DNA of 64,000 nucleotides, taken from NCBI GenBank assembly GCA_046313635.1, contig JBKBYA010000013.1, forward strand, positions 9,795 through 73,794, read 5' to 3'. This document shows, one piece after another, positions 4,108-63,910 of the stretch. The first letter of the stretch is position 1. Every line of letters starts with the position of its first letter. This DNA comes from Pyrinomonadaceae bacterium. GTDB lineage: Bacteria; Acidobacteriota; Blastocatellia; Pyrinomonadales; Pyrinomonadaceae. A program made the translations under genes and the position numbers. Under the pieces are notes generated by a model. The model saw nothing but the letters and a program-made list of their open reading frames with translations, did no database searches and had not been told where the DNA came from.

Positions 4108-4124
4108 CCGGCAAAGCAGTAATG

Positions 4125-4163
4125 AAAACTAGCTGACAGCTAATAGCTGTCAGCTAGTTTTTT
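4125..4163. terminator. Bidirectional hairpin terminator between convergent gyrA and ruvB
   Basis: Perfect 17-bp stem aaaactagctgacagct / agctgtcagctagtttt with a 3-nt loop. A-run on one side and T-run on the other. Confidence 0.7.
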
Positions 4164-4182
4164 ATGCGCGATGTTCGACCTC

Positions 4183-8127: not shown

Positions 8128-8178
8128 ACTGACTTCACTTCAAATCCCGTTTTTTAACGATTCAGGAGCAAAAACTAA

Positions 8179-8457
8179 ATGCAGGAAGCATTAGGAATGG
8201 TCGAGACCAAAGGTCTCGTGGCGATGATCGAGGCAGCCGACGCGATGGTCAAGGCCGCGAATGTGCAGCTCGTCGGTTACGAAAAGATCGGCGCCGGATT
8301 TGTCACAGCCATCGTTCGCGGTGACGTCGCCGCCGTCAAGGCCGCGACCGACGCCGGCGCCGCCGCCGCCCGCCGCGTCGGCGAGCTCGTCAGCGTACAC
8401 GTCATCCCGCGTCCGCACTCAAGCGTCGACGAGACACTGCCGGTCGTAATGAAATAG
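8179..8457 (+). CDS. Bacterial microcompartment shell protein, hexamer type (BMC-H)
   Basis: [55 protein letters not shown] is the canonical PduA/EutM/CcmK fold signature. Confidence 0.93.
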
Positions 8458-8530
8458 TGGTCAGTGATCCGTGGTCAGTGGTCAGAAATTTCTGATACTG
8501 ACCACCGACCGCTGACAACCGACCACTGAC
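8458..8530. repeat. Heptamer-array hairpin (unit TGGTCAG / CTGACCA)
   Basis: tggtcag tgatccg tggtcag tggtcag, then loop, then ctgaccaccgaccgctgacaaccgaccactgac. Fills the entire BMC-H / BMC-P gap. Confidence 0.75.
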
Positions 8531-8800
8531 ATGATCATCGGACGCATTTTAGGCACCGTCGTTTCGACGCAGAAGGACCCGCGGCTCAGCGGCAAGAAGC
8601 TGCTGATCGTAAAGCCCATTAACCTCGACGGCTCCGACCAGAGCGGATACGTCGTCGCGGTCGATACGGTCGGCGCGGGCTTTCATGAAAAGGTGATCGT
8701 CGTCGGCGGCTCGTCGGCACGCATGGCCGAGGGCAACAAGGATTGCCCGGTCGACTCCGCGATAATCGGCGTCATCGACACCATCGACTTCACTTCATAG
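8531..8800 (+). CDS. BMC vertex protein, pentamer type (BMC-P) 1
   Basis: MIIGRILGTVVSTQKDPRLSGKKLLIV..VAVDTVGAGFHEKVIVVGGSSAR..DSAIIGVID is the EutN/CcmL signature. Confidence 0.9.
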   Translation: MIIGRILGTVVSTQKDPRLSGKKLLIVKPINLDGSDQSGYVVAVDTVGAGFHEKVIVVGGSSARMAEGNKDCPVDSAIIGVIDTIDFTS

Positions 8801-8805
8801 ACCCC

Positions 8806-9087
8806 GTGCAAATTGCCCGCGTCATCGGAACCGTTGTCTCGACCGTCAAAAACGAAACGCTCGAGGGCCGAAAGTTCTTGATCGTCCAGACGCTCGACGC
8901 CGATCTCAAACCTAAGGGATCGCCGCAGGTCGCGCTCGACGCGGTCGGAGCCGGCATCGGCGAATTGGTCTTCTGGTGCCGAGGAAAGGAAGCATCGTTT
9001 CCGTTCAAGCGCGACGAGACGCCGACCGACTGCACTATCGTCGGGATCATCGACTCGGACGCGCACGTTTATAACGGCGAGGGATGA
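8806..9087 (+). CDS. BMC vertex protein, pentamer type (BMC-P) 2
   Basis: GTG start (VQIARVIGTVVSTVKNETLEGRKFLIV..DAVGAGIGELV..DCTIVGIID). The track ORF start at 8743 overlaps the previous gene and was trimmed. Confidence 0.85.
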   Translation: MQIARVIGTVVSTVKNETLEGRKFLIVQTLDADLKPKGSPQVALDAVGAGIGELVFWCRGKEASFPFKRDETPTDCTIVGIIDSDAHVYNGEG

Positions 9088-9262
9088 ATGGTAAGAGGCA
9101 AACTGTAAGCGGTAAATGTTAGGTCGCACGGCGTAAATGGTGAATCGTAAATCGTAAATGAATTGCTTACGGTCATACCAGGTAGTTGGAGTCAAAAATT
9201 TACCGTTTACCAGTTACCTCTTACCGTTCACCATTCACCACTGACACTTCACCGCTAAAGAG
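9088..9262. repeat. Heptamer-array hairpin (arm unit GGTAAAC/GGTGAAT, inner GTAAATC array), related to 58398..58875
   Basis: Left arm ggtaagaggcaaactgtaagcggtaaatg pairs with right arm atttaccgtttaccagttacctcttacc. The inner gtgaatcgtaaatcgtaaatgaattg is the reverse complement of the core of the 58.4-kb element. Confidence 0.75.
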
Positions 9263-12785: not shown

Positions 12786-14588
<1,803 letters not shown>

Positions 14589-14594
14589 CGGTAG

Positions 14595-14676
14595 AAAGGA
14601 TAAAGGATGAAGGATGAAGGATAAAGGGAAGAGCGGCGATCGTGCGGCCGCGGTCCCTGATCCTTCATCCTTTAAG
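14595..14676. repeat. Heptamer-array hairpin (unit AAGGATG / CATCCTT) between SRP RNA and dnaX
   Basis: aaggata aaggatg aaggatg aaggata aaggga, then a 24-nt GC loop, then tccctgatccttcatcctttaag. Confidence 0.8.
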
Positions 14677-14682
14677 AAACTG

Positions 14683-14785
14683 GTGGCTTCAGACTTACCC
14701 GCAACACAGGCTGAAATCGCTACCGTTGCTCGATTCCTCGCCTAGCGGATTCACGACTCAAACCTTGTGCGGAGCCTGAAGCCGT
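14683..14785 (-). ncRNA. ffs: Signal recognition particle RNA (small/4.5S type)
   Basis: Minus strand: 5' ggcuucag pairs with 3' cugaagcc. Domain IV motif AGG-CGA-GGAA-UCG-AGCA-ACGGUAG (GGAA tetraloop plus AGCA). ffs immediately upstream of dnaX is a common synteny. Confidence 0.75.
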
Positions 14786-14791
14786 ATGTGA

Positions 14792-14869
14792 ATTTTGGAT
14801 TTTAGATTTTGGATTGTCGAAAAACGGTCGCTTACTTCAATCCGAAATCCGAAATCTAAAATCCAAAAT
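14792..14869. repeat. Heptamer-array hairpin (unit ATTTTGG / CCGAAAT) between tRNA-Ser and SRP RNA
   Basis: attttgg attttag attttgg attg, then loop, then caatccgaaatccgaaatctaaaatccaaaat. Confidence 0.8.
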
Positions 14870-14874
14870 CGATC

Positions 14875-14965
14875 TGGCGGAAAGGGTGGGATTCGAACCC
14901 ACGGTACCCTTTTGAGGTACACAGCATTTCCAGTGCTGCCAGTTCAACCACTCCTGCACCTTTCC
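14875..14965 (-). tRNA. tRNA-Ser (anticodon GGA), CCA encoded
   Basis: Minus strand GGAAAGGTGCAGGAGTGGTTGAACTGGCAGCACTGGAAATGCTG..long variable arm..GGGTTCGAATCCCACCCTTTCCGCCA. Anticodon loop CU-GGA-AA. Confidence 0.9.
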
Positions 14966-14966
14966 G

Positions 14967-15048
14967 GGAATTAAAAATTCCAAATTTCAAATTCCAAATT
15001 TAGGCTTGCCTCGATCAATCTGGAATTTGGAATTTGGAATCCTTAATC
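14967..15048. repeat. Heptamer-array hairpin (unit AAATTCC / GGAATTT) between the two tRNA-Ser genes
   Basis: aaattcc aaatttc aaattcc aaattta, then loop, then tggaatt tggaatt tggaatc. Same unit type as 24592..24636. Confidence 0.8.
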
Positions 15049-15053
15049 GATCG

Positions 15054-15144
<91 letters not shown>

Positions 15145-15200: not shown

Positions 15201-15365
15201 GTCAGAACCGCCCCGCGTAAGCGGGCGGGTCGAACCATCGGCGACTTATTTGTCGGGGAAATACGCGAGAGATCGCGAAAGCAAATTGGGCGAAAGAGCC
15301 CGCCCGCTTGCGCGGGTGGTTCTGACGGGCAAAAGAGCCCGCCCGCTTACGCGGGTGGTTCTGAC
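15201..15365. repeat. REP-like palindromic elements: three ~31-bp copies (one inverted, two tandem)
   Basis: gtcagaaccgccccgcGTAAgcgggcgggtc (15201-15231) is the reverse complement of gagcccgcccgcttgcgcgggtggttctgac (15296-15326) and gagcccgcccgcttacgcgggtggttctgac (15335-15365). Each has a CCCGC/GCGGG stem with a GNRA-type loop. Confidence 0.8.
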
Positions 15366-15826
15366 CGGCGTCTTGCTCTGAAAAACTCCTGCATCAGCGA
15401 GCGGCATTCTTCCTGCAGCACTCCGCCGCGGATCTCAAAGCGGTGATTCAACAGTTCGCTCGTTCCGATGCCGAAATGCGTGACCAGTCCGCCAAAGCGC
15501 TCGTCGGCAGCGCCGTAAACCACGCGTGCGACCCGCGCACCGACGAGAGCACCGGCGCACATTACGCACGGTTCGATGGTCGTGTAGAGCGTTGTGCCGG
15601 TGAGGCGATAGTTGCCGAGCTTGCGCGCGGCCTCGCGCAGGGCGAGGACCTCGGCGTGGGCGGTCGGGTCGCTCTCGGCGATCGTACGATTCGAGGCCGA
15701 TGCGAGCAACTCACCATTCTCGTCGACAACGCACGCTCCGACGGGCACCTCGTCGAGGTCGCGAGCCTCGCGTGCGCGTGCGAGGGCCTCGCGCATCCAG
15801 ATCTCGTCTTCGATCGTCTCGTGCAT
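15347..15826 (-). CDS. tadA: tRNA adenosine(34) deaminase
   Basis: HAEVLALREA and TIEPCVMCAGAL zinc motifs. Start trimmed to MHETIEDEIWM (cat 15824-15826). The last ~7 codons and the stop lie inside REP copy C. Confidence 0.9.
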   Translation of the reverse strand: MHETIEDEIWMREALARAREARDLDEVPVGACVVDENGELLASASNRTIAESDPTAHAEVLALREAARKLGNYRLTGTTLYTTIEPCVMCAGALVGARVARVVYGAADERFGGLVTHFGIGTSELLNHRFEIRGGVLQEECRSLMQEFFRARRRSEPPA

Positions 15827-38740: not shown

Positions 38741-38897
38741 GGGTTGGTTGTTTGTTCGTGGTTCGTTGATCGTGGTTCGTTGTTCGTTGTTCGTGGTTCG
38801 TTGTCAACCTGCGAACAATCAGCGATGAGCCACGACCGATTTACTACGAACAACAAACGACGATCAACGATCAACGATCGACGATCAACGAACAGCC
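38741..38897. repeat. Heptamer-array hairpin (unit GTTCGTT/GTTCGTG; complement CGATCAA/CGAACAA)
   Basis: gttcgtg gttcgtt gatcgtg gttcgtt gttcgtt gttcgtg gttcgtt, then loop, then ..cgaacaa caaacga cgatcaa cgatcaa cgatcga cgatcaa cgaacag. Confidence 0.8.
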
Positions 38898-38910
38898 CCG
38901 AACAAGTCCT

Positions 38911-44093: not shown

Positions 44094-46025
44094 TCATTCG
44101 CGATGCACGACGAAATCCATATCCGCGAGATCTTGGAGCAGCATGAAGGTCCTCGACTCGGTGATCGGCGTCCCCCGCTTCGACGGTAGAACCGACAGAA
44201 CGTAATATCGCGACACCGGAAGATCCTCGAAGGTGTAAAAGCCGAAGGAGTTTGAGATGCGGGTTACCGTCAGGCCCGTCTCCGTATCGAGAAGATTCAG
44301 GACCATACCCCGAACTCCCCGACCGTTCGCATCGACCACACGCCCGGTCACAAAGGCCGAAGCCGCCGTCGGAGCGAGAGGCTCGCTTGTGTAAGTGCAG
44401 AGAATGTCTGCTCCGGGCTGAGCCACGATCGACGCCGTCTTGTTAGCCAGATCAAGAGACGCGTCGGCCGCCGTCGTGGTGCCGTTCAATGTCTGCGTAC
44501 AGTCGATCGACGTCAGGCGGTAACCGTCAACCGGAGACTCGGTGACAATGATCGGATTCGAGCTGCCGAAGGCCTGCACGTTCGCATCTTGATAGGTCGT
44601 GTTGTCGACCAGTGTAAATGTCGCAGCGGCAAGACGTGTCGCACTAAAAGGGAAAGCCGCTGTCGATGAGGTGCTGGTGCTATTCTGTAGGCGCTTTTTG
44701 ACCGTTACGCGAGCGGAGCTTGGCGTCGGGCTGGGCGTCGGTGTGGCCGTCGGCGTCGGCGTCGGTGTCGCCGTCGGCGTCGGCGTCGGTGTGGCCGTCG
44801 GCGTCGGCGTCGGCGTCGGTGAGGTCGAGCTCAACCATGTATACAAAAGCAGATTGGGCGAGGCCGCATTGTTGGTGGTAAGCACACCGGTTGTCGCGGT
44901 GCTCCGAATGACCTGTGTAACTGTCGCAGCACTGGCAGTCGGATTTGCCGACAAGTAGATCGCCGCGGCACCGGCCACCATCGGAGCCGCCATAGACGAG
45001 CCGCCCAGCGTATTTGTAGCCGTATCGCTCGACGACCATGTGCTGATGATCTGGTGGCCGGGAGCAAAAAGGTCAACGCAGGATCCGTAATTCGAATAGA
45101 GTGCCCTAACGTCGTTGGGGTCGGAAGCTCCGACCGTGATGGCCGCCGGCGTGCGTGCAGGCGTGAAGTTGCACGCATCGTAGTTGCCGTTGCCGGACGC
45201 GACCGAATAGACGATTCCCGAGTTAATGGAGTTTGTAAGAGCGGTCTCGAGCGCCGGCGACGAACCCGCTGCAGCTACGCTGATATTTGCGACCGCAGGC
45301 CTGACGGCATTGGTCGTCACCCAGTTGATACCCGAGATCAAATTGGATATCTGGCCGTTGCCGTCGCACTGCATTACGCGCACGCCGTGAAGGTAGACGT
45401 TTTTTGCCACACCCCACGTAGCCGCGCCGATGGTTCCCGCGACGTGCGTGCCGTGACCGTTGCAGTCAAAACCATTTTGGCCGTCGCCGACAAAGTCGAC
45501 CGAAATGCTCGCGCGGCCACCAAACTCCACGTGCGTCGGCCGGATGCCCGTGTCGATCACGTAGGCGTGCACGCCCGCGCCGGCTGAGCTGTAGCTGTAC
45601 TGCGTATCGATCGGACGGTTGCGCTGGTCAACCCGATCGAGGTTCCATGGAGCTCCGGTTTGGGTGGCGGTGATCGAAATATAACCGTCCTCCTCGATCG
45701 ATCGGATGCTCGGATCGGCGGCCATTGCCTTGGCCTCCTCCGCTGACATCTCAGCGACAAATCCCTTGACGGCAGACGAAAAAACGGTCTTTACCGATCC
45801 GCCGTACAGCGAAACAAGGTAGAGACCTTGCGCCTCGACCTCCGGCTCGAGGGCCGCCGCTCCCGTTGTCTCCTCATCGAGAAGGATAATGTATCTATTT
45901 GGAACCGGTGATGCGGCGCGAACGACGTCGCTCTCTTTCTTTTGGGCTGAAGTCCCCGATGGGCCGATGGTCGCAATTCCGAGGACTGTGATGATAAATA
46001 CCGACAGGATCCAAAACTTTGTCAT
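44094..46025 (-). CDS. Secreted S8 (proteinase K/subtilisin-like) serine peptidase with I9 propeptide, Thr-Pro linker and the shared C-terminal tail
   Basis: Triad contexts YVIDTGI, NGHGTHVAGT, GGSSMAAPMVAG. TPTPTPTA linker, then prealbumin-like plus CarboxypepD_reg-like domains. Confidence 0.93.
   Translation of the reverse strand: MTKFWILSVFIITVLGIATIGPSGTSAQKKESDVVRAASPVPNRYIILLDEETTGAAALEPEVEAQGLYLVSLYGGSVKTVFSSAVKGFVAEMSAEEAKAMAADPSIRSIEEDGYISITATQTGAPWNLDRVDQRNRPIDTQYSYSSAGAGVHAYVIDTGIRPTHVEFGGRASISVDFVGDGQNGFDCNGHGTHVAGTIGAATWGVAKNVYLHGVRVMQCDGNGQISNLISGINWVTTNAVRPAVANISVAAAGSSPALETALTNSINSGIVYSVASGNGNYDACNFTPARTPAAITVGASDPNDVRALYSNYGSCVDLFAPGHQIISTWSSSDTATNTLGGSSMAAPMVAGAAAIYLSANPTASAATVTQVIRSTATTGVLTTNNAASPNLLLYTWLSSTSPTPTPTPTATPTPTPTATPTPTPTATPTPSPTPSSARVTVKKRLQNSTSTSSTAAFPFSATRLAAATFTLVDNTTYQDANVQAFGSSNPIIVTESPVDGYRLTSIDCTQTLNGTTTAADASLDLANKTASIVAQPGADILCTYTSEPLAPTAASAFVTGRVVDANGRGVRGMVLNLLDTETGLTVTRISNSFGFYTFEDLPVSRYYVLSVLPSKRGTPITESRTFMLLQDLADMDFVVHRE
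44727..44822. repeat. In-frame tandem repeat encoding the (TPTPTPTA)n linker of the S8 peptidase
   Basis: Iterated ggcgtcggcgtcggtgtggccgtc (24-bp period). Confidence 0.8.
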
Positions 46026-50424: not shown

Positions 50425-51039
50425 ATGAGCGCCTCACGATCCGAGCTTTTCCGAGAGTTTTACCTGCAGGCACAGGCGTGCCGCGTCTGCCCGGACCTTG
50501 CCGACAAGACCGCCGTTCTGAGCGAGCTTAACGGCAATCTCGCGCCGCGCGTCTTCTTTATCGGCGAGGCCCCGGGCCGGCAGGGGGCCGACCGCACGCG
50601 GCGGCCCTTCTACGGCGACAAGTCGGGCGCGAACTTTCAGCAGCTGCTCGACTCGATCGGGCTGAAGCGCGAAGACATCTTTATCACGAGTGCCGTGATG
50701 TGCAGCCCGCGTTCGGCGACCGACGCCAATCGCAGACCGACGCGCAGCGAGATCAAAAATTGCTCGACGCACCTTCGCCGCACGATCGAGCTCGTCGATC
50801 CGCCGCTGATCGCCACGCTCGGCAGCGTCGCGCTCGAGTCGCTCAAGCTGATCGAGCCGCACGACCTCACGCTCAAAATTCACGCAGGCACCGTCAACCG
50901 CTGGAACGGCCGCACGCTCGTTCCGCTCTATCACCCGAGCCCGCAGGTCATCGCATCGCAGCGCGGCCTCGCGCTGCAGCTCAAACACTTCGCGACGCTC
51001 GCTAGCTTGATCGATCCCTTCGGAATAACTGAGAACTGA
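50425..51039 (+). CDS. Uracil-DNA glycosylase superfamily protein (family 4-like)
   Basis: CRVCPDL.., FFIGEAPGRQG, ..LYHPSP... The last 6 codons and the stop lie in the left arm of a heptamer hairpin. Confidence 0.85.
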   Translation: MSASRSELFREFYLQAQACRVCPDLADKTAVLSELNGNLAPRVFFIGEAPGRQGADRTRRPFYGDKSGANFQQLLDSIGLKREDIFITSAVMCSPRSATDANRRPTRSEIKNCSTHLRRTIELVDPPLIATLGSVALESLKLIEPHDLTLKIHAGTVNRWNGRTLVPLYHPSPQVIASQRGLALQLKHFATLASLIDPFGITEN

Positions 51040-51088
51040 TAGCGAGAAGAAGTTGTCAGTTATCAGCTATCAGTTATCACTTATTCCG
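51021..51088. repeat. Heptamer-array hairpin (unit AACTGAT / CAGTTAT) overlapping the 3' end of the UDG gene
   Basis: cggaataactgagaactgatagc, then loop, then gtcagttat cagctat cagttat cacttattccg. The arms match at 21/23 positions. Confidence 0.8.
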
Positions 51089-51152
51089 AAAGTGTCCCGT
51101 TTTCATTTTCCCGACCCGGCAGAATAAACTGACAACAAGACAGCAGCGATAG

Positions 51153-57713: not shown

Positions 57714-58397
57714 TCAGGCGACAAACTTATAGCCAAAACCGTGCACCGTCTGAATGTACCGCGGGCGTCGCGGATTGACCTCCAGCTTTTGCCTGAGCCA
57801 TGCGATGTGGACGTCGACGGTGCGCGTCGTAGGCGTCGCGTCGTATCCCCAGACGGCGTCGAGCAGCTGGTCGCGCGAGTGGACGACGTTTGGATTTTCG
57901 ACGAGGTACTGCAGGAGCTTGAATTCGAGCGCCGACATCTCGACCGCTGAGCCGTTTCGCACGACCTCGGCCCTTCGAAGGTCGATCGCGACGTCGCCAA
58001 ATCTAAAGACATTGGTCGAGCGGCCTTTCCCCGCAGAAGGAGCGCGCCGCAGCAGCGCCTCGACGCGGGCCAGCAGCTCCATCACTTCGAAAGGCTTCGT
58101 AAGATAATCGTCCGCGCCGAGCTTTAGGCCTAAGACCTTATCGATGGTCTCGCCCTTTGCCGTGAGCATCAGGATCGGCGTCGCGACGCCCGCCGCGCGC
58201 AGATCGCGGCAGACGTCGTACCCGTTCTTTTTCGGCAGCATCACGTCGAGGATGATCAGGTCGTGCCCGCCGCCGAGCGCGAGCTCGTAACCCGTCAGCC
58301 CGTCCTCGGCGCTCAAAACCTCAAACCCCTCACTCCGCAGCCGATCGGTCAGCGTCAGTATCAGGCCCTGTTCATCTTCGACGAGAAGGATCTTCAT
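57714..58397 (-). CDS. OmpR/PhoB-family response regulator
   Basis: MKILLVEDE..DLIILDVMLP..LTAK.. receiver domain plus winged-helix output (..VHIAWLRQKLE..IQTVHGFGYKF). Confidence 0.93.
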   Translation of the reverse strand: MKILLVEDEQGLILTLTDRLRSEGFEVLSAEDGLTGYELALGGGHDLIILDVMLPKKNGYDVCRDLRAAGVATPILMLTAKGETIDKVLGLKLGADDYLTKPFEVMELLARVEALLRRAPSAGKGRSTNVFRFGDVAIDLRRAEVVRNGSAVEMSALEFKLLQYLVENPNVVHSRDQLLDAVWGYDATPTTRTVDVHIAWLRQKLEVNPRRPRYIQTVHGFGYKFVA

Positions 58398-58875
58398 TCG
58401 TTAGTGGTGAAGCGTGAAGCGTGAAGTGTGAACGGTGAATGGTGAGTGGTGAACGGTGAACGGTAAACGGTAAATGGTGAACGGTGAACGGTAAACGGTA
58501 AACGGTAAACGGTAAACGGTAAGCGGTAAACGGTAAATGGTGAACGGTGAACGGTAAATGGTGAACGGTGAACGGTAAACGGTAAGTGGTAAATGAAGGA
58601 TGCCATTCACAATTCACGATTTACGAGTCACGATTCACTATCCGCTCAAGTCTGTCCATTCACCATTTACCATTTACCGCTTACCGTTTATGAACGGTGA
58701 ACGGTGAACGGTAAACGGTAAGTGGTAAATGAAGGATGCCATTCACAATTCACGATTTACGATTTACGAGTCACGATCCGCTCAAAGCTGTCCATTTACC
58801 ATTTACCATTTACCACTTACCGTTTACCACTCACCACTTACCGTTTACCACTCACCACTCACCCTTCACCGTTAA
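58398..58875. repeat. Duplicated composite heptamer-array element (arms GGTGAAC/GGTAAAC, conserved ~65-nt core) between the kinase and regulator genes
   Basis: Unit 1: ~190-nt GGT[A/G]AAC array, core aaggatgccattcacaattcacgatttacgagtcacgat..ccgctcaa..ctgtcc, then a 33-nt GTTTACC-type array. Unit 2 (58690-58875): 40-nt array, the same core, then an 80-nt complementary array. 58470-58530 holds six near-perfect cggtaaa heptamers. Confidence 0.9.
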
Positions 58876-60700
58876 CCACGGGTAGCTCTATCGTAAACCT
58901 GCTTCCGCGCCCCGATCCGCTTTCGGCGGTGACGCGGCCGCCGTGGGCTTCGGCGATCTGTTTTACGAGCGAGAGGCCGAGGCCGCTGCCGTGGATCTGC
59001 GCGTCGACGACCGTTCTTGACCTGTAAAAAGGCTCGAATACATGTTTCAGATCAGCGCTCGATATGCCGATCCCGCGGTCTTCGACGACGATCTTCACCG
59101 TGCCGCCGCCGTTCGCCGCCGAGACCCTGATCCATCTTTGCCCGTTGGCGTACTTGACCGAGTTCGCGATGAGGTTTTGGATCGCCCTATTCAATGCCGC
59201 CTCGTCGGCCGAGACCGACGGCAGCGCCGGCGGGATGTCGGTCTCGACCGCAAAGCCCTCAGACTCGAGCAGCGGACGGCTGTCGTCGACGGCCCGTGCG
59301 ACAAGCGACGCGATGTCGACCGGGCGAAAGTTGTACTTCTGCCGGCCCGAATTTGCCCCGGCAAATTCGAGTATCTGCTCGACCATCGCCGAAAGTTTTT
59401 TACCCTCGCCCTTGATCAGCCGGCCGTAACGCGCGACCTGTGATCCGTCTTTTGCGACGCCGTCGGCGAGATTTTCGCCGGCGGAGTAGATCACCGCGAG
59501 CGGCGTGCGGAACTCGTGCGAGACGCTCGAGACAAAATCGACCTGCCGCTGGGCGAAAAGCCTCGCCCGCGCAGACGAGACGATGATCCCCGCGACCGCC
59601 GCGCCGAGCAGAGCGAGAATGCCAAATCCGACACCAAGATTTCGCCATTCGGTCTTCGCCACCGACGCGGCGACCGAACCGTCGCGGTGCCGCGCAGTGA
59701 GCGTCCACGGCGGCGGCTCGCCCGTTCTCGTTCGGGTCGCGATCATCGACGCTCTCGCCGGACCGTTCTGCTTCATCTCGACGGTCACCTGGCCGGTCTT
59801 TGCAACGCGCTTTTCGATCTGGCTGAACGAGTGCGTTTCGAGCCGCGAATCAAAAACTACGGTGCCCGGCCTTTTATCGCCGCCGCCGATCGACGAGAGC
59901 ACGTCGCGATTAGAAAAGAGAATGAAGTTCTCCGCCGACAGATCGAAGAGCCTCGCCCGCGCATCGCCGTCGCCGGCTGCTGCGTCGACCGGCACAGATC
60001 GATATTCGCTGCGGCCCGCGCCGTCGTCGACCGATATCGCAAACTCGCCGTCGCCAAAATGCCGGTCGGTGAGATCCGGCAGCAGGCGTCCGGTGATGGT
60101 CGACTTGTCGAGGCGGATCGCGAGATAGCCGACGGTCTTTGGTCTGGGGAGGGGCGGCGACGCTTCGTCGCCGCGCGTGCGGCGGATAAAGATGCGCTCG
60201 ATCTTTGGCGGAGCCTCGCTGATCGGCAGCACGAGCGTCGAGATGTCGGCGAGGACCGGCGTGAACGTATCGCCCGCGCCGATGCGCGAGCGCAGCGTGC
60301 GAAGCTCGTCGTTCCACGCTGCCTGCTCAAACCGGGCGCCGTCGGCGCCGCTGTGAACGAGAGGTTCGGCATCTTCGCTTTCGGCGTCGAAATATACAAA
60401 GCCCGCGACGAGCGTCGGGTACTGCGTCTTCGACCGCCAGTAGGCCAGTCGCTCGTTGAACTCGCTCCAGTCGCGGTCTCGCCACGACAGCGCGTCGGTC
60501 TGAAAGTTGAAATACGCGCCCTGCATCTCGCGATTGAAATCGCTCGCAAATCGCGTCGTCGCTTCGTGCACGCGCCGCTGCATCTTTTCGGCCTCGCTCG
60601 CGCTGATCTGCCGCTGCCAGCGGAACTGCAGCGCGCCGAGCAGCAACAGCAGTCCGACGAGCGCGGCAAAGAGCAGGATTGTCGAGAGCGATCGCTTCAT
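58859..60700 (-). CDS. Sensor histidine kinase (HisKA + HATPase_c)
   Basis: H-box FVSSVSHEFRTPL, N-box NLIANSVKY, G-boxes DRGIGI and GSGLGLS. Start trimmed to MKRSLSTILL. The last 6 codons (VVNGEG) and the stop derive from the repeat. Confidence 0.9.
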   Translation of the reverse strand: MKRSLSTILLFAALVGLLLLLGALQFRWQRQISASEAEKMQRRVHEATTRFASDFNREMQGAYFNFQTDALSWRDRDWSEFNERLAYWRSKTQYPTLVAGFVYFDAESEDAEPLVHSGADGARFEQAAWNDELRTLRSRIGAGDTFTPVLADISTLVLPISEAPPKIERIFIRRTRGDEASPPLPRPKTVGYLAIRLDKSTITGRLLPDLTDRHFGDGEFAISVDDGAGRSEYRSVPVDAAAGDGDARARLFDLSAENFILFSNRDVLSSIGGGDKRPGTVVFDSRLETHSFSQIEKRVAKTGQVTVEMKQNGPARASMIATRTRTGEPPPWTLTARHRDGSVAASVAKTEWRNLGVGFGILALLGAAVAGIIVSSARARLFAQRQVDFVSSVSHEFRTPLAVIYSAGENLADGVAKDGSQVARYGRLIKGEGKKLSAMVEQILEFAGANSGRQKYNFRPVDIASLVARAVDDSRPLLESEGFAVETDIPPALPSVSADEAALNRAIQNLIANSVKYANGQRWIRVSAANGGGTVKIVVEDRGIGISSADLKHVFEPFYRSRTVVDAQIHGSGLGLSLVKQIAEAHGGRVTAESGSGRGSRFTIELPVVNGEG

Positions 60701-60887
60701 TTCAAAAGCGCGAAGCACGCGCGGCCTCTCGTGGCCCATTGTCCACTCTGCACTTTTCGGTGTCCACTGCTTTTCGGCACTTTTTACATCCTTAACAATT
60801 TCTTTGCCTGGTCTTAACCACACGTTGGTCAGGCGGTGAAATAATCGGTACCGTCAGAAAACCATTCGACGGCTTGGGAGGCAATTT

Positions 60888-62167: not shown

Positions 62168-63910
62168 TTGAAGCAAAACCAGCTCAAGCGCATCGAACGC
62201 CTCGCCACGCGGCGCGTCGCTCCCGATCAGATCATTTCACCCGAGCTTGCACGGCAGATGACCGAGATCTCGCACGAGACCAATCGGCAGGTCGGCGTAC
62301 TGCTCAATCGCAAGGGCCAGGTCGAGTACGTTATGGTCGGCACAGCGAAGCAGATCGAGATGCCCGACTTTGGCCGCGCCCGCGTGTCGGCCGACCGCTT
62401 CCGCGGACTCCGATGCGTTCACACGCACCTGCTCGGCGAAAAGCTCACGCAGGACGACCTCACCGACCTCGCCCTGCTGCGCCTCGACCTGATGTCGATC
62501 ATCCAGGTCGATAGATCAAACGGCCTGCCCGGTCTCGTCCACTCGGCGCACCTCGTACCGGCCCAGCCGGGTTCCGAGTTCGGGGTTCAGCGTTCCGGGG
62601 CGAACGGGCACTCTGAACTCGAAACCCCGAACTCTGAACTGCGAGGCTCTGACTCGCTCCCGTACGAATTCCTCGAGCCCGCGATCCCGGCCCATCTCGA
62701 GACCGACTTTCTCTCGCTGATCAACTCGCTCGAGGACGAGATGGCACGCGTCCGCCAAACGGCGCGCAGCCGGCAGGCAAACCGCGACCGGGCGATCCTG
62801 ATCAGCGTCACGACCGGCAGCACGGACGATGCCGCGGAGTCGCTCGCGGAGCTCGAGGAGCTCGCCGCGTCGGCGGGCGTCTTTGTCCTCGACAAGATCA
62901 TCCAGCGCCGCCCGCAGATCGATCCGCGAACCGTGCTCGGCCGCGGCAAGCTCGACGAGCTGCTCATCCGCTCGATGCGGCTCGGCGCGGATATGATCAT
63001 CTTTGACGCCGAGCTCGGCCCGGCGCAGGTGCGTTCGCTCTCGGAGGCGACCGAGCTCAAGGTCATCGACCGTCCGCAGCTCATCCTCGACATCTTTGCG
63101 CAGCGCGCGCAGAGCCGCGAGGGCAAGCTGCAGGTCGAGCTGGCGCAGCTCAAGTATCTTTTGCCCCGGCTGGTCGTCGGACAAAACTCCGCATTCTCGC
63201 GGCTTGCCGGCGGCATCGGCGGACGCGGGCCCGGCGAGACCAAGCTCGAGACAGACCGGCGCCGAGTGCGCGACCGCATCTCGCAATTGGAACGCGCCGT
63301 CGACGACCTCGGCCGCCAGCGGCAGGAGCGCCGCAAGAACCGCGTTCAAAAGCACCTGCCGATCATCTCGCTCGTCGGCTACACCAACGCCGGAAAATCG
63401 ACCCTGCTCAACGCGCTCACGCAATCGGACGTTTACGCCGAGCAGAAGATGTTCGCGACGCTCGACCCGACGTCGCGCCGACTGCGTCTGCCGTACGAGC
63501 AGGAGGTCATCATCAACGACACGGTCGGCTTCATTCGCGATCTGCCCGCAGCACTCGTCTCGGCGTTTCGCGCGACGCTCGAGGAGATCGCCGACAGCGA
63601 CCTGCTGGTTCACGTCGTCGACGCGTCAAATCCGCGCGTCGAGCAGCAGATCGGATCGGTCGAGGGCATTCTCAAGGAACTCTCTCTCGACCGCATTCCG
63701 CAGGTGCTCGTGCTGAACAAGTCAGACCTCATCGCGGCCGACGATCTCGACGCGCTGCGGCGCAGGGTGATGCTTGACAGGAGTGCGGAATGCGTGGCAA
63801 TTTCAGCTATCCGCCGGGATACCCTCCGTCCGCTGGTGGAAGCGATGGCAGTCAGGATAGGCATGTTCTCGGTACCGAGCGACGAGGTCGCGGCGGCCGG
63901 CAATCTTTAG
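62168..63910 (+). CDS. hflX: GTPase HflX (long form with ~190-aa N-terminal extension)
   Basis: HflX N-domain (..LILDIFAQRAQSREGKLQVELAQLKYLLPRL) and G-domain (GYTNAGKST, DTVGF, NKSD). TTG start assumed. Confidence 0.92.
   Translation: MKQNQLKRIERLATRRVAPDQIISPELARQMTEISHETNRQVGVLLNRKGQVEYVMVGTAKQIEMPDFGRARVSADRFRGLRCVHTHLLGEKLTQDDLTDLALLRLDLMSIIQVDRSNGLPGLVHSAHLVPAQPGSEFGVQRSGANGHSELETPNSELRGSDSLPYEFLEPAIPAHLETDFLSLINSLEDEMARVRQTARSRQANRDRAILISVTTGSTDDAAESLAELEELAASAGVFVLDKIIQRRPQIDPRTVLGRGKLDELLIRSMRLGADMIIFDAELGPAQVRSLSEATELKVIDRPQLILDIFAQRAQSREGKLQVELAQLKYLLPRLVVGQNSAFSRLAGGIGGRGPGETKLETDRRRVRDRISQLERAVDDLGRQRQERRKNRVQKHLPIISLVGYTNAGKSTLLNALTQSDVYAEQKMFATLDPTSRRLRLPYEQEVIINDTVGFIRDLPAALVSAFRATLEEIADSDLLVHVVDASNPRVEQQIGSVEGILKELSLDRIPQVLVLNKSDLIAADDLDALRRRVMLDRSAECVAISAIRRDTLRPLVEAMAVRIGMFSVPSDEVAAAGNL
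62568..62646. repeat. Heptamer-array hairpin embedded IN FRAME in hflX
   Basis: gggttcc gagttcg gggttca gcgttcc, then loop ggggcgaacgggcac, then tctgaac tcgaaac cccgaac tctgaac. gagttcggggtt pairs with aaccccgaactc. Encodes PGSEFGVQRSGANGHSELETPNSELRGS. Confidence 0.8.

What the first reader, a model, noticed from the sequence alone, without database searches (positions are those of the whole stretch)
58398..58875. Duplicated ~480-bp composite repeat wedged between a histidine kinase and its response regulator, with a relative in the BMC operon
The HK stop (58859) and the RR start (58397) are separated by two tandem copies of an element: a GGT[A/G]AAC heptamer array, a ~65-nt core (aaggatgccattcacaattcacgatttacga[g]tcacgat..ccgctcaa.gctgtcc), then a GTTTACC-type array. 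Arm lengths are very unequal (about 190, 33, 40 and 80 nt), so the outer and inner arms can pair to give a nested or cruciform fold. The 9088..9262 element between two BMC-P genes shares the arm unit, the CAATTCA junction and the CGATTTA core array (about 26/29 matches with one 3-nt gap, in inverted orientation). This is therefore a repeat family that has spread, unlike most of the other hairpins. The near-perfect (CGGTAAA)6 run is a classic slippage substrate. Copy-number change would alter HK-RR spacing and coupling, and the HK C-terminus (VVNGEG*) is encoded by the array.
Basis: seen in the sequence. Interest (0 to 1): 0.65.

Follow-up and report, generated by a model that had tools for sequence, protein, structure and literature searches.

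The report
Overgrown heptamer-repeat hairpin between kinase and regulator
The 461-base gap between a sensor kinase gene and its response regulator gene is filled by a giant hairpin built from 7-base repeats whose tip was duplicated once; it is the largest example of a hairpin type common in this acidobacterial lineage, and it looks grown in place rather than mobile or a switch.

Summary
The spacer between the HK stop (58859) and the RR start (58397) is almost entirely period-7 arrays. A 136-bp block (inner arm, ~60-nt core, inner arm) is present twice in tandem at 93% identity. The arms measure 193, 35, 41 and 88 nt. The sense RNA folds into a nested, branched hairpin (-242 kcal/mol, z -15.8).

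Half of the "core" is itself a heptamer array (CGTRAAT). Similarity to the 9088-9262 element is confined to the arrays; the non-repeat spacer and loop segments differ in length and sequence.

The window comes from a Pyrinomonadaceae-like acidobacterium and carries about ten other hairpins with heptamer-repeat arms. In 63 orthologous HK|RR junctions the spacer ranges from a 4-nt overlap to 279 nt (median 33). Half of the long spacers are hairpins with 7-9-nt periodic arms whose units differ between lineages. The closest relative has a small hairpin of the same unit family at this site.

This favours growth in place by replication slippage plus one tip duplication. It does not favour transposition or a dedicated phase switch. 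No strand-specific RNA signal was found. Unit copy number is uncertain: short-read unitig depths hint at more than two blocks.

Precedents exist (Nostoc trnL-intron P6b hairpin, Geobacter paired tandem-repeat sites).

The parts
57714..58397 (-). OmpR-type response regulator gene, downstream cistron
   Evidence: ORF of 227 aa starting MKILLVEDE. Pfam Response_reg and Trans_reg_C.
58403..58595 (.). RR-side outer arm. On the + strand it is a GGTGAAC/GGTAAAC/GGTAAAT array of about 27 units with a 28-nt higher-order period. In the transcript it is the 3' arm, (GTTYACC)n, and is open in all three frames.
   Evidence: TRF period 7 x25.4 and period 28 x6.1. Three overlapping - strand ORFs cross it.
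58596..58655 (.). Core copy 1: loop AAGGATGC (58596-58603), degenerate heptamer array CCATTCA CAATTCA CGATTTA CGAGTCA CGATTCA CT (58603-58639), non-repeat spacer ATCCGCTCAAGTCTGT (58640-58655).
   Evidence: (TRF 58605-58638, ATTCACG x4.9).
58656..58690 (.). Inner arm, CCATTYA/CCGYTTA type, 35 nt. It is 94% complementary to 58513-58547.
   Evidence: (pair I24).
58691..58731 (.). Inner arm, GGTGAAC/GGTAAAC type, 41 nt. It is the start of tandem copy 2 and is 87% complementary to 58807-58845.
   Evidence: (pair I22).
58732..58791 (.). Core copy 2: the same loop, array and spacer. It has one extra ATTTACG unit, lacks the ATTCACT unit of copy 1, and has 2 substitutions in the spacer.
58792..58879 (.). 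HK-side outer arm. On the + strand it is a CCATTTA/CCACTTA/CCGTTTA/CCACTCA array with a 21-nt higher-order period. In the transcript it is the 5' arm, (GGTRART)n, with stop codons in all three frames. Its last 21 nt encode the HK tail VVNGEG and the stop codon.
   Evidence: TRF period 21 x3.8 and period 7. Translation.
58557..58826 (.). Tandem duplication of a 136-bp block that spans the hairpin tip: inner part of one arm, core, inner part of the other arm.
   Evidence: TRF 136 x2.0 at 93%. Family D3. Alignment. Junction confirmed by unitigs from two metagenomes.
58859..60700 (-). Histidine kinase gene, upstream cistron. The database version is 613 aa; the longest ORF runs to 60823.
   Evidence: Pfam HisKA and HATPase_c. 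P0001 is 613 aa and 100% identical.
9073..9254 (+). Related heptamer hairpin between BMC-P2 and BMC-P3. Parts: arm AACGGCG..GGTAAAT (9073-9118), spacer (9119-9131), CGTAAAT array (9132-9165), loop (9166-9197), arm ATTTACC..CTTCACC (9198-9254). It has the same arm and array unit families and the same orientation relative to transcription. Its upstream ORF also ends in NGEG*.
   Evidence: The element is absent from the orthologous spacer of L074 and L016.

Best explanation
This is a non-mobile, self-complementary array of degenerate 7-nt repeats that grew in place in the HK->RR intercistronic spacer of a Pyrinomonadaceae-like acidobacterium.

Proposed origin (inferred):
1. It began as a small hairpin, like the one still present at this junction in the closest relative.
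2. Each arm then expanded by replication slippage, in units of 7 nt and in blocks of 21 or 28 nt.
3. One tandem duplication copied a 136-bp block across the hairpin tip. This produced the present order: long arm, core, short arm, short arm, core, long arm.

Because the arms are periodic, they still pair in any register. Unit gains and losses on one arm are therefore tolerated, and the arms can become very unequal.

Consequences (inferred): the element is transcribed as part of the HK-RR mRNA, where it must form a very stable branched duplex. That separates the HK stop from the RR start by 461 nt of structure and replaces the ATGA-type coupling seen in many relatives. I see no evidence that this fold is itself under selection.

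Shown: the anatomy, the fold potential, the lineage-specific gain, the diversity of units at orthologous sites, and unit-level differences between copies and between arms. Inferred: the slippage mechanism, transcription, and the effect on expression.
For: Anatomy and fold:
- Anatomy.
- Sense RNA folds at -242 kcal/mol, z -15.8. The 88-nt arm pairs with the distal part of the 193-nt arm, and two branches form from the duplicated block.
- The DNA strand folds at -118 kcal/mol, z -11.6.

The class is genome-wide:
- About 10 other hairpins in the window have arms that are tandem heptamers with locus-specific units.
- They sit exactly between stop and start codons or between RNA genes.

The element is a lineage-specific gain:
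- In 63 distinct orthologous HK|RR junctions, 23 have spacers of 10 nt or less, many being 4-nt ATGA overlaps. The median is 33 nt and the maximum 279 nt. The window has 461 nt.
- 15 of the 30 spacers longer than 45 nt fold at z<-3, with arms periodic at 7-9 nt and different units in different lineages.
- The closest relative (69% aa identity, same synteny) has a 58-nt spacer containing AATAAACAGTAAGG...CTTATTGTTCACCG. These look like the same unit family as the window's arms, by eye.
- The BMC-H|P1 and P2|P3 hairpins are absent from the orthologous operons of L074 and L016.

Signs of slippage:
- The two copies differ by whole-unit changes.
- The outer arms have different higher-order periods, 28 versus 21 nt.
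- Outer arms are 76-82% complementary; inner arms are 87-94%.
- Relatives show one-arm unit indels and loss of a whole arm (L169; L184 versus L146).
- An unbiased census finds many different heptamer units and no dominant one.

Background from the literature:
- Heptanucleotide repeats are the commonest long SSR class in many bacteria and have been ascribed to polymerase slippage (Mrazek et al. 2007, as summarised in PMC4679880).
- In the Nostoc trnL intron, the P6b hairpin is made of degenerate heptanucleotide repeats that vary by copy number and by inserted non-repeat pieces (PMC3488679).
Against: - The 9088-9262 element shares the arm unit, the inner CGTAAAT array, the order arm-spacer-array-loop-arm, the orientation relative to transcription and the NGEG* tail. 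That much agreement is more than independent growth easily predicts.
- An X1 contig of 16.9 kb at the same depth as the window's genome ends in a third hairpin with the same arm units.
- How a hairpin first arises in a 4-nt gene overlap is not explained.
- In this one element the sense strand has 25 G.U pairs against 12 on the antisense strand. This could hint at RNA-level constraint.
- No read-level data show slippage directly.
Confidence: 0.6

Rival explanations
1. It is a selected intercistronic RNA element. The long duplex would be an RNase III or other processing site, a stabiliser, or an attenuator that sets the HK:RR ratio after co-transcription.
For: - The fold is extremely stable.
- Hairpins of this class sit precisely between cistrons and between tRNA, SRP RNA and dnaX genes. 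They leave about 8-12 nt free before the start codon.
- In this element, sense G.U pairs (25) exceed antisense (12), and the sense MFE is 21 kcal/mol lower.
- From general knowledge: long dsRNA is an RNase III substrate, and REP, ERIC and Correia repeats affect mRNA fate.
Against: - Across 15 orthologous hairpins, G.U pairs are 30 sense against 30 antisense. The sense strand is the more stable in only 8 of 15.
- A third of orthologous junctions have no spacer at all, so the structure is dispensable.
- There is no U-tract terminator.
- No RNA data are available.
Confidence: 0.15
2. It is a mobile, MITE-like composite element that inserted at both the HK|RR and the BMC-P2|P3 junctions and elsewhere, bringing its own stop codon.
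For: - The two loci share unit families, internal order, orientation relative to transcription and the NGEG* ORF tail.
- Further contigs in X1 carry the same arm units and then run into unrelated flanks.
- Hairpins appear at junctions that are only 1-20 nt in relatives.
Against: - The non-repeat spacer and loop of the two loci differ in length (13 vs 16 nt; 32 vs ~8 nt) and are not brought into register by alignment.
- The exact core occurs only as the tandem pair in the window and not at all in JGI metagenome contigs.
- No terminal inverted repeats distinct from the arrays and no target-site duplication are visible.
- The closest relative has a small hairpin of the same unit family at the same site.
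- Orthologous sites carry many different units.
- No transposase lies nearby.
Confidence: 0.1
3. It is a phase-variable or contingency locus. Changes in unit number would switch or tune RR expression or the HK C-terminus.
For: - There are near-perfect runs, 4 identical GGTAAAC units in a row.
- The two copies differ by whole units.
- X1 unitig depths are non-integer multiples of the 18x flanks: 44.4x, 28.5x and 80.7x. This is compatible with copy-number heterogeneity.
Against: - No promoter-like site lies in the spacer.
- A 7-nt change cannot frameshift the RR. In HK it alters at most the last six residues, because the array has stops in all frames.
- The arrays are only 86% regular, which slows slippage.
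- A 151-nt stretch is identical in a second strain from another habitat.
- The organism is a free-living environmental bacterium.
- The depth excess may be GC bias, since the arrays are 42-47% GC against 60% for the window.
Confidence: 0.07
4. The paired arrays are DNA binding sites for an abundant protein, as proposed for the paired tandem 7-9-nt repeats of Geobacter metallireducens (IHF/HU-type or an unidentified global regulator), or binding sites for a heptamer-binding cold-shock protein on RNA.
For: - The architecture matches the Geobacter 'paired sites on opposite strands', which include one between proB and proA (PMC2700814).
- CspB binds heptamer repeats, one protein per unit (as reviewed in PMC4679880).
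- The lack of strand asymmetry fits a DNA-level role.
Against: - Units differ from locus to locus. A single binding protein would not recognise them all.
- The idea is untested even in Geobacter.
Confidence: 0.08

Closest known systems
P6b stem-loop of the Nostoc tRNA-Leu(UAA) group I intron (Costa et al. 2002; described in PMC3488679)
   Same: The hairpin arms are degenerate heptanucleotide repeats that pair with each other. Length differences arise from repeat copy number and from inserted pieces that do not follow the repeat motif. It is transcribed.
   Different: That element lies inside a group I intron of a cyanobacterium and is tens of nucleotides long. This one lies between two protein genes of an acidobacterium, is 461 nt long, has very unequal arms and carries a duplicated tip.
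Paired tandem hepta-/octa-/nonanucleotide repeat sites of Geobacter metallireducens, classes 1-3 (PMC2700814)
   Same: There are 3-5 tandem 7-9-nt units on one strand and the same on the opposite strand a variable distance away. They are intergenic, including between genes of one operon (proBA).
   Different: In Geobacter each class has one consensus present at 8-24 loci and was read as a regulator binding site. Here units are mostly locus-specific, arrays are far longer, and comparative data point to growth in place.
Long simple sequence repeats of 5-11 nt (Mrazek et al. 2007), cyanobacterial heptanucleotide arrays, and TAACTGA repeats of Beggiatoaceae (PMC4679880)
   Same: The period is 7 and the location intergenic. 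The arrays often abut start or stop codons. The forward orientation gives stop codons in all three frames, so the array can only overlap the last few codons of a gene. One window hairpin (51020-51090) even uses a rotation of TAACTGA.
   Different: Those are direct arrays; only one inverted set was found among 170 in the Beggiatoa genome. Here the arrays come as inverted pairs that form hairpins.
REP/BIME, ERIC and Correia-type intergenic palindromic repeats
   Same: They are extragenic palindromes co-transcribed within operons, with possible effects on mRNA processing and stability.
   Different: Those are multi-copy families with a conserved sequence, and REPs are linked to a RAYT transposase. 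This element has no conserved family sequence outside its repeat units, and its stems are periodic.

Membership tests
Heptanucleotide-repeat hairpin (Nostoc trnL P6b type) | Both arms are made of degenerate heptanucleotide repeats that pair with each other | tested here: met
   TRF period-7 arrays on both sides. Inverted pairs at 76-94% complementarity. Fold.
Heptanucleotide-repeat hairpin (Nostoc trnL P6b type) | Variants differ by repeat copy number and by inserted non-repeat pieces | tested here: met
   The two tandem copies differ by whole units. 16-nt non-repeat spacers lie inside the hairpin. Relatives differ in unit number per arm. Variation between strains of this species was not resolvable.
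Heptanucleotide-repeat hairpin (Nostoc trnL P6b type) | Located in the P6b region of a group I intron | tested here: not met
   It lies between the HK and RR genes. Rfam finds no intron or any other family here.
Long SSR (unit 5-11 nt) | Tandem array longer than expected by chance | tested here: met
   25.4 units at 86%. Period-7 signal is 222 windows against 21 or fewer for other periods.
MITE / small mobile element | Several dispersed copies that share the whole sequence, including non-repeat parts | tested here: not met
   The core 29-mer occurs only as the tandem pair. The core 22-mer gives 0 hits in JGI metagenome contigs. The spacer and loop at 9088-9262 differ in length and are not aligned in register with those at 58.6 kb. 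The complete genome was not available.
MITE / small mobile element | Defined termini with target-site duplication | tested here: inconclusive
   By eye, comparison with empty orthologous sites shows no duplicated flank at 8456-8531, 9073-9254 or 58398-58879. The periodic ends would hide a short duplication.
Phase-variable contingency locus | Repeat tract placed so that unit changes shift a reading frame or promoter spacing | tested here: not met
   The tract lies between the stop and start codons. Only the last six HK codons are inside it. No promoter-like site lies in the spacer.
Phase-variable contingency locus | Length heterogeneity within a population or among strains | tested here: inconclusive
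   Only k=31 unitigs are available. Depths are 44.4x, 28.5x and 80.7x against 18x for the flanks. The X2 strain is identical over 58665-58815.
Intrinsic terminator | GC-rich stem followed by a U-tract | tested here: not met
   No terminator-like site on the - strand in 58398-58879. The stem is AT-rich and is followed by ACTAACGAATG.
REP/BIME | Palindrome of 20-40 bp with a conserved family sequence in high copy number | tested here: not met
   The arms are 35-193 nt and periodic, and units differ between loci. Presence of a RAYT gene was not testable without the genome.
Geobacter-type paired tandem-repeat sites | Inverted pair of 3-5 tandem 7-9-nt units, with the same consensus at many loci | tested here: inconclusive
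   The inverted-pair architecture is met. The same unit family is seen at 2 loci in the window and at least 1 more contig in X1. Most loci have their own unit.

The most novel reading that the evidence does not exclude
Pyrinomonadaceae, and similar hairpins seen in Lentisphaerae, Bacteroidota and Verrucomicrobiota contigs, may possess an active and possibly enzyme-assisted process. It would seed and extend periodic-arm hairpins specifically at gene junctions. The resulting register-tolerant duplexes would be used as tunable intercistronic spacers, for example to replace ATGA coupling between a kinase and its regulator. Unit number would act as a heritable dial on relative expression.
Probability: 0.12. 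Interest if true: 0.7.

Novelty: new member of a known kind. Interest (0 to 1): 0.4.

Why it matters
For this locus, the result removes the idea of a new mobile or phase-variable element. It also flags a stretch whose exact length a short-read assembly cannot guarantee.

More broadly, the same operon junction in one bacterial family has gained hairpins with 7-9-nt periodic arms many times, each with its own unit, in spacers from about 48 to 163 nt, with 461 nt in this window. This gives a natural series for studying three questions:
- how tandem-repeat palindromes are born and grow;
- why 7 nt is favoured;
- how much intercistronic structure a two-component operon tolerates.

If these hairpins affect mRNA processing, they would be a widespread and unannotated layer of operon regulation in Acidobacteriota.

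Tried and rejected
- Rfam, gathering thresholds on the whole window and E-value mode on 58300-58950: only tRNA and SRP RNA, plus sub-threshold generic miRNA-hairpin matches.
- Genome-collection scan with a degenerate core pattern. It returned 106 loci, but these were unrelated ATTYACG arrays (Pyrinomonadaceae hairpins and a dispersed repeat in Akkermansia). The pattern therefore measures a unit, not a family. The window's own genome was not among the loci.
- JGI metagenome scan with the specific core 22-mer: 0 hits.
- Plasmid collection: one weak hit to arrays in a Planktothrix plasmid.
- Exact look-up of the window's HK (P0001): not on record. The RR look-up gave only a 3.1-kb Logan contig that ends inside the array.
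- RNA runs: none available, so co-transcription could not be tested.
- Promoter and terminator scan: nothing in the spacer.
- G.U strand-asymmetry test for RNA-level selection: 25 vs 12 at this locus and 54 vs 33 over the window's hairpins. These counts are not independent events. The result was 30 vs 30 in 15 orthologous hairpins, so it was rejected as evidence.
- The idea that the stop-rich arm always comes first in the transcript: true for the two GGTRAAC loci but, by eye, not for relatives' hairpins.
- The idea that the shared NGEG* tail shows protein-level selection: it follows from the same unit being read in the same frame (1 chance in 3), so it is not persuasive.
- A 70-aa ORF (58394..58606, -) starts at an ATG in the core-1 loop, and its TGA overlaps the RR ATG. 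All three frames are open across this arm, so this is probably chance.

Full report
**What is there.**
On the - strand, a histidine kinase gene is followed by an OmpR-type response regulator gene. The HK ORF is 58859..60823 and the database version is 613 aa; it has HisKA and HATPase_c domains. The RR is 57714..58397. The 461 nt between them, plus the last 21 nt of HK, are almost pure period-7 sequence.

Read on the + strand, the order is:
- a 193-nt array of GGTGAAC/GGTAAAC/GGTAAAT (58403-58595);
- a ~60-nt core (58596-58655);
- a 35-nt arm of the complementary type (58656-58690);
- a 41-nt arm of the first type (58691-58731);
- a second core (58732-58791);
- an 88-nt arm of the complementary type (58792-58879).

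TRF and the repeat finder both report a 136-bp unit present twice at 93%. A 29-nt core string is found exactly twice, against none expected.

Two refinements are needed. The duplicated unit is 136 bp. More than half of each core is itself a degenerate heptamer array (ATTCACG/ATTTACG), flanked by an 8-nt loop and a 16-nt non-repeat spacer.

**Is the sequence trustworthy?**
Logan unitigs from a hot-spring metagenome (X1, flanks at 18x) confirm the junctions core1-arm-arm (58597-58725) and core2-outer arm (58733-58820). A groundwater strain (X2) is identical over 58665-58815. No unitig covers 58506-58523, so the length of the most regular run is unconfirmed.

Unitig depths are 44.4x for the core-1 block, 28.5x for the core-2 block and 80.7x for the part shared by both. 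The true locus may therefore hold more than two blocks, or vary in the population, or simply be over-covered because it is AT-rich. This remains open.

**Fold.**
The sense RNA (58385-58895, - strand) folds at -242 kcal/mol (z -15.8). The 88-nt 5' arm pairs with the distal part of the 193-nt 3' arm, and two branch hairpins come from the duplicated block. The DNA strand folds at -118 kcal/mol (z -11.6).

The layout is what a single tandem duplication of a 136-bp segment spanning the tip of one long hairpin would give. The unequal arms largely balance once all forward-type segments are summed: 88+35 plus two ~37-nt inner arrays, against 41+193.

**Context: a genome-wide class.**
The window has about ten further hairpins whose two arms are tandem heptamers, each with its own unit:
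- AGTGGTC at 8456-8531;
- AAGGATG, ATTTTGG and AAATTCC between dnaX, SRP RNA and two tRNAs at 14588-15040;
- GTTCGTG at 38752-38898;
- AGTTATC at 51020-51090;
- a GC-rich one at 62567-62640;
- the gyrA terminator at 4124-4165.

Period 7 dominates all other periods. These hairpins fill the space between a stop codon and the next start codon or RNA gene.

**Who is it?**
HK homologues carry the names Pyrinomonadaceae, Acidobacteria and Chloracidobacterium; the best non-self hit is 69% identical. Three Pyrinomonadaceae MAG contigs carry the orthologous microcompartment operon at 70-77% nucleotide identity. The window is thus from a Pyrinomonadaceae-like acidobacterium found in hot-spring and groundwater metagenomes.

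**Comparative test at the same junction.**
I collected 63 distinct orthologous HK|RR junctions.
- 23 have 10 nt or less, many being ATGA overlaps.
- The median spacer is 33 nt and the maximum 279 nt. The window's 461 nt is the largest.
- Of the 30 spacers over 45 nt, 15 fold far better than shuffles (z<-3).
- Their arms are periodic at 7, 8 or 9 nt, with units that differ by lineage: CACAGAG.., CGCAGAGA, GAAAAGT, GATAAAT, TTTCGTG.
- Related loci show one-arm unit gains (L169) and loss of a whole arm (L184 versus L146).
- The closest relative (L108, same synteny with DUF72) has a 58-nt spacer with a small hairpin, AATAAACAGTAAGG...CTTATTGTTCACCG. By eye this is the same unit family as the window's arms.

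In the microcompartment operon, the window's hairpins at BMC-H|P1 and P2|P3 are missing from the orthologous spacers of L074 and L016, which are about 1-20 nt. L077 lacks the H|P1 hairpin too, but it has a CGTGAAT hairpin at a different junction (P1|P2) and a 341-nt non-periodic palindrome at P2|P3.

So hairpins of this kind are gained repeatedly, at different junctions and with different units. An unbiased census of about 440 kb finds many units and no dominant one.

**The claimed relative at 9088-9262.**
It does share several features with the HK|RR element:
- the arm unit (GGTAARN / NYTTACC);
- an inner CGTAAAT array;
- the order arm-spacer-array-loop-arm;
- the orientation relative to transcription;
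- an upstream ORF ending in NGEG*.

A global alignment, however, matches only the arrays. The non-repeat spacer (13 vs 16 nt) and the loop (32 vs ~8 nt) differ in length and are not placed in register.

A degenerate version of the shared core string hits 106 loci in public genomes. These are CGTRAAT/ATTYACG hairpins with unrelated loops in many Pyrinomonadaceae MAGs, arrays in other phyla, and a separate dispersed repeat in rabbit-gut Akkermansia. The specific core 22-mer has no hit in JGI metagenome contigs.

The NGEG* tail is what the unit AACGGTGAAGGGTGA gives in one of three frames. I read the two loci as the same unit family, possibly linked by recombination between arrays. I do not read them as copies of a mobile element. 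A 16.9-kb X1 contig at the genome's depth ends in a third hairpin with these arm units, so a modest family of arrays does exist.

**Mechanism.**
The evidence fits growth in place:
- unit-sized differences between the two blocks;
- different higher-order periods in the two outer arms, 28 and 21 nt, so each arm expanded on its own;
- lower complementarity of the outer arms (76-82%) than the inner arms (87-94%).

Periodic arms pair in any register, so one-sided changes do not destroy the hairpin. Polymerase slippage as the source of heptanucleotide repeats is an established proposal (Mrazek et al. 2007, as summarised in PMC4679880). How the second arm is kept similar is inference; template switching within quasi-palindromes is the obvious candidate.

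**Function.**
The element must be transcribed if HK and RR share a promoter. No promoter-like or terminator-like site lies in the spacer, but no RNA data exist.

The 5' arm carries stop codons in all frames and supplies the HK stop. The 3' arm ends 8-12 nt before the RR start, as in relatives.

A test for sense-strand RNA selection gave 25 G.U pairs sense against 12 antisense at this locus. Across 15 orthologous hairpins it gave 30 against 30. One third of orthologous junctions have no spacer.

I therefore treat any role in processing, stability or HK:RR balance as a consequence and not a demonstrated function.

**What is known.**
The closest precedents are:
- the P6b stem-loop of the Nostoc trnL intron, a hairpin of degenerate heptanucleotide repeats that varies by copy number and inserted pieces (PMC3488679);
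- the paired tandem 7-9-nt repeat sites of Geobacter metallireducens, including one between proB and proA, read there as regulator binding sites (PMC2700814).

Direct heptamer arrays (TAACTGA repeats, long SSRs) share the period and the stop-in-all-frames property.

This locus is a new and extreme member of that kind, in a phylum where I found no description of it. It is not a new kind.

**Verdict.**
It is most likely an in-place expanded heptamer-repeat palindrome with a duplicated tip (confidence 0.6). Interest is moderate (0.4), mainly for the family-wide pattern of repeated hairpin birth at one operon junction.

Noticed in passing
window 14588-15144: Two tRNA genes, the SRP RNA gene and dnaX (all on the - strand) are each separated by a heptamer-arm hairpin with a different unit (AAATTCC, ATTTTGG, AAGGATG). 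The last hairpin ends at the dnaX start codon.
   Followed up: partly
window 8456-8531: A 74-nt hairpin with AGTGGTC/GACCACY arms sits exactly between the BMC-H stop (TAG) and the BMC-P1 start. Three Pyrinomonadaceae relatives have only 1-2 nt there.
   Followed up: yes
window 51020-51090: The arms of this hairpin use AGTTATC. This is a rotation and complement of TAACTGA, the heptamer described as abundant direct repeats in Beggiatoaceae, cyanobacteria and some Bacteroidetes.
   Followed up: no
window 4124-4165: A perfect palindrome with AGCTNNN periodicity followed by a T-run lies right after gyrA. It has ordinary intrinsic-terminator shape but also a 7-nt period.
   Followed up: partly
window 58394-58606 (-): A 70-aa ORF starts at an ATG in the loop of core copy 1 and reads through the whole 193-nt arm. 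Its TGA overlaps the RR ATG (ATGA). All three frames are open across this arm, so this is probably chance.
   Followed up: partly
window 9070-9087 and 58859-58879: Two unrelated proteins (BMC-P2 and the histidine kinase) both end in NGEG*, encoded by the first units of the same heptamer array family. Relatives end ..AHVNRG* and ..ELPVA*.
   Followed up: yes
L002-L105 (rabbit-gut Akkermansia MAG contigs): A multi-copy dispersed element with a conserved ~35-nt head (cacatccgtcccaagaaaaagcgatcccaacacg) is followed by CAATTCA and a variable number (about 2-8) of ATTTACG units. It occurs at dozens of loci in three MAGs.
   Followed up: no
L016 2790-3101; also L074 and L077: The motif CTAACAGTCAATTCACTATTTACGATTTACGATTCACTATTTAC occurs upstream of BMC-H in Pyrinomonadaceae MAGs. 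In L016 it forms an inverted pair about 290 nt apart, a possible operator pair. It is absent from the window's equivalent region (8128-8178).
   Followed up: no
L077 2025-2365: A 341-nt spacer with a long, near-perfect, non-periodic palindrome lies between BMC-P2 and BMC-P3 in one relative. A CGTGAAT heptamer hairpin lies between P1 and P2 in the same contig.
   Followed up: partly
run X3 (organism A), laid on window 58410-58868: There is an enormous word depth (up to about 1.8e8) of GGTAAAC-like repeats in an unrelated sequencing run. This is apparently a satellite of another organism and explains that run's 6% word share.
   Followed up: no
window 15288-15369 and 44722-44819: A 39-nt unit repeated 2.1 times (93%) lies next to the tRNA cluster. 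A GGCGTC/24-nt repeat lies inside the ORF 44094-46025(-).
   Followed up: no
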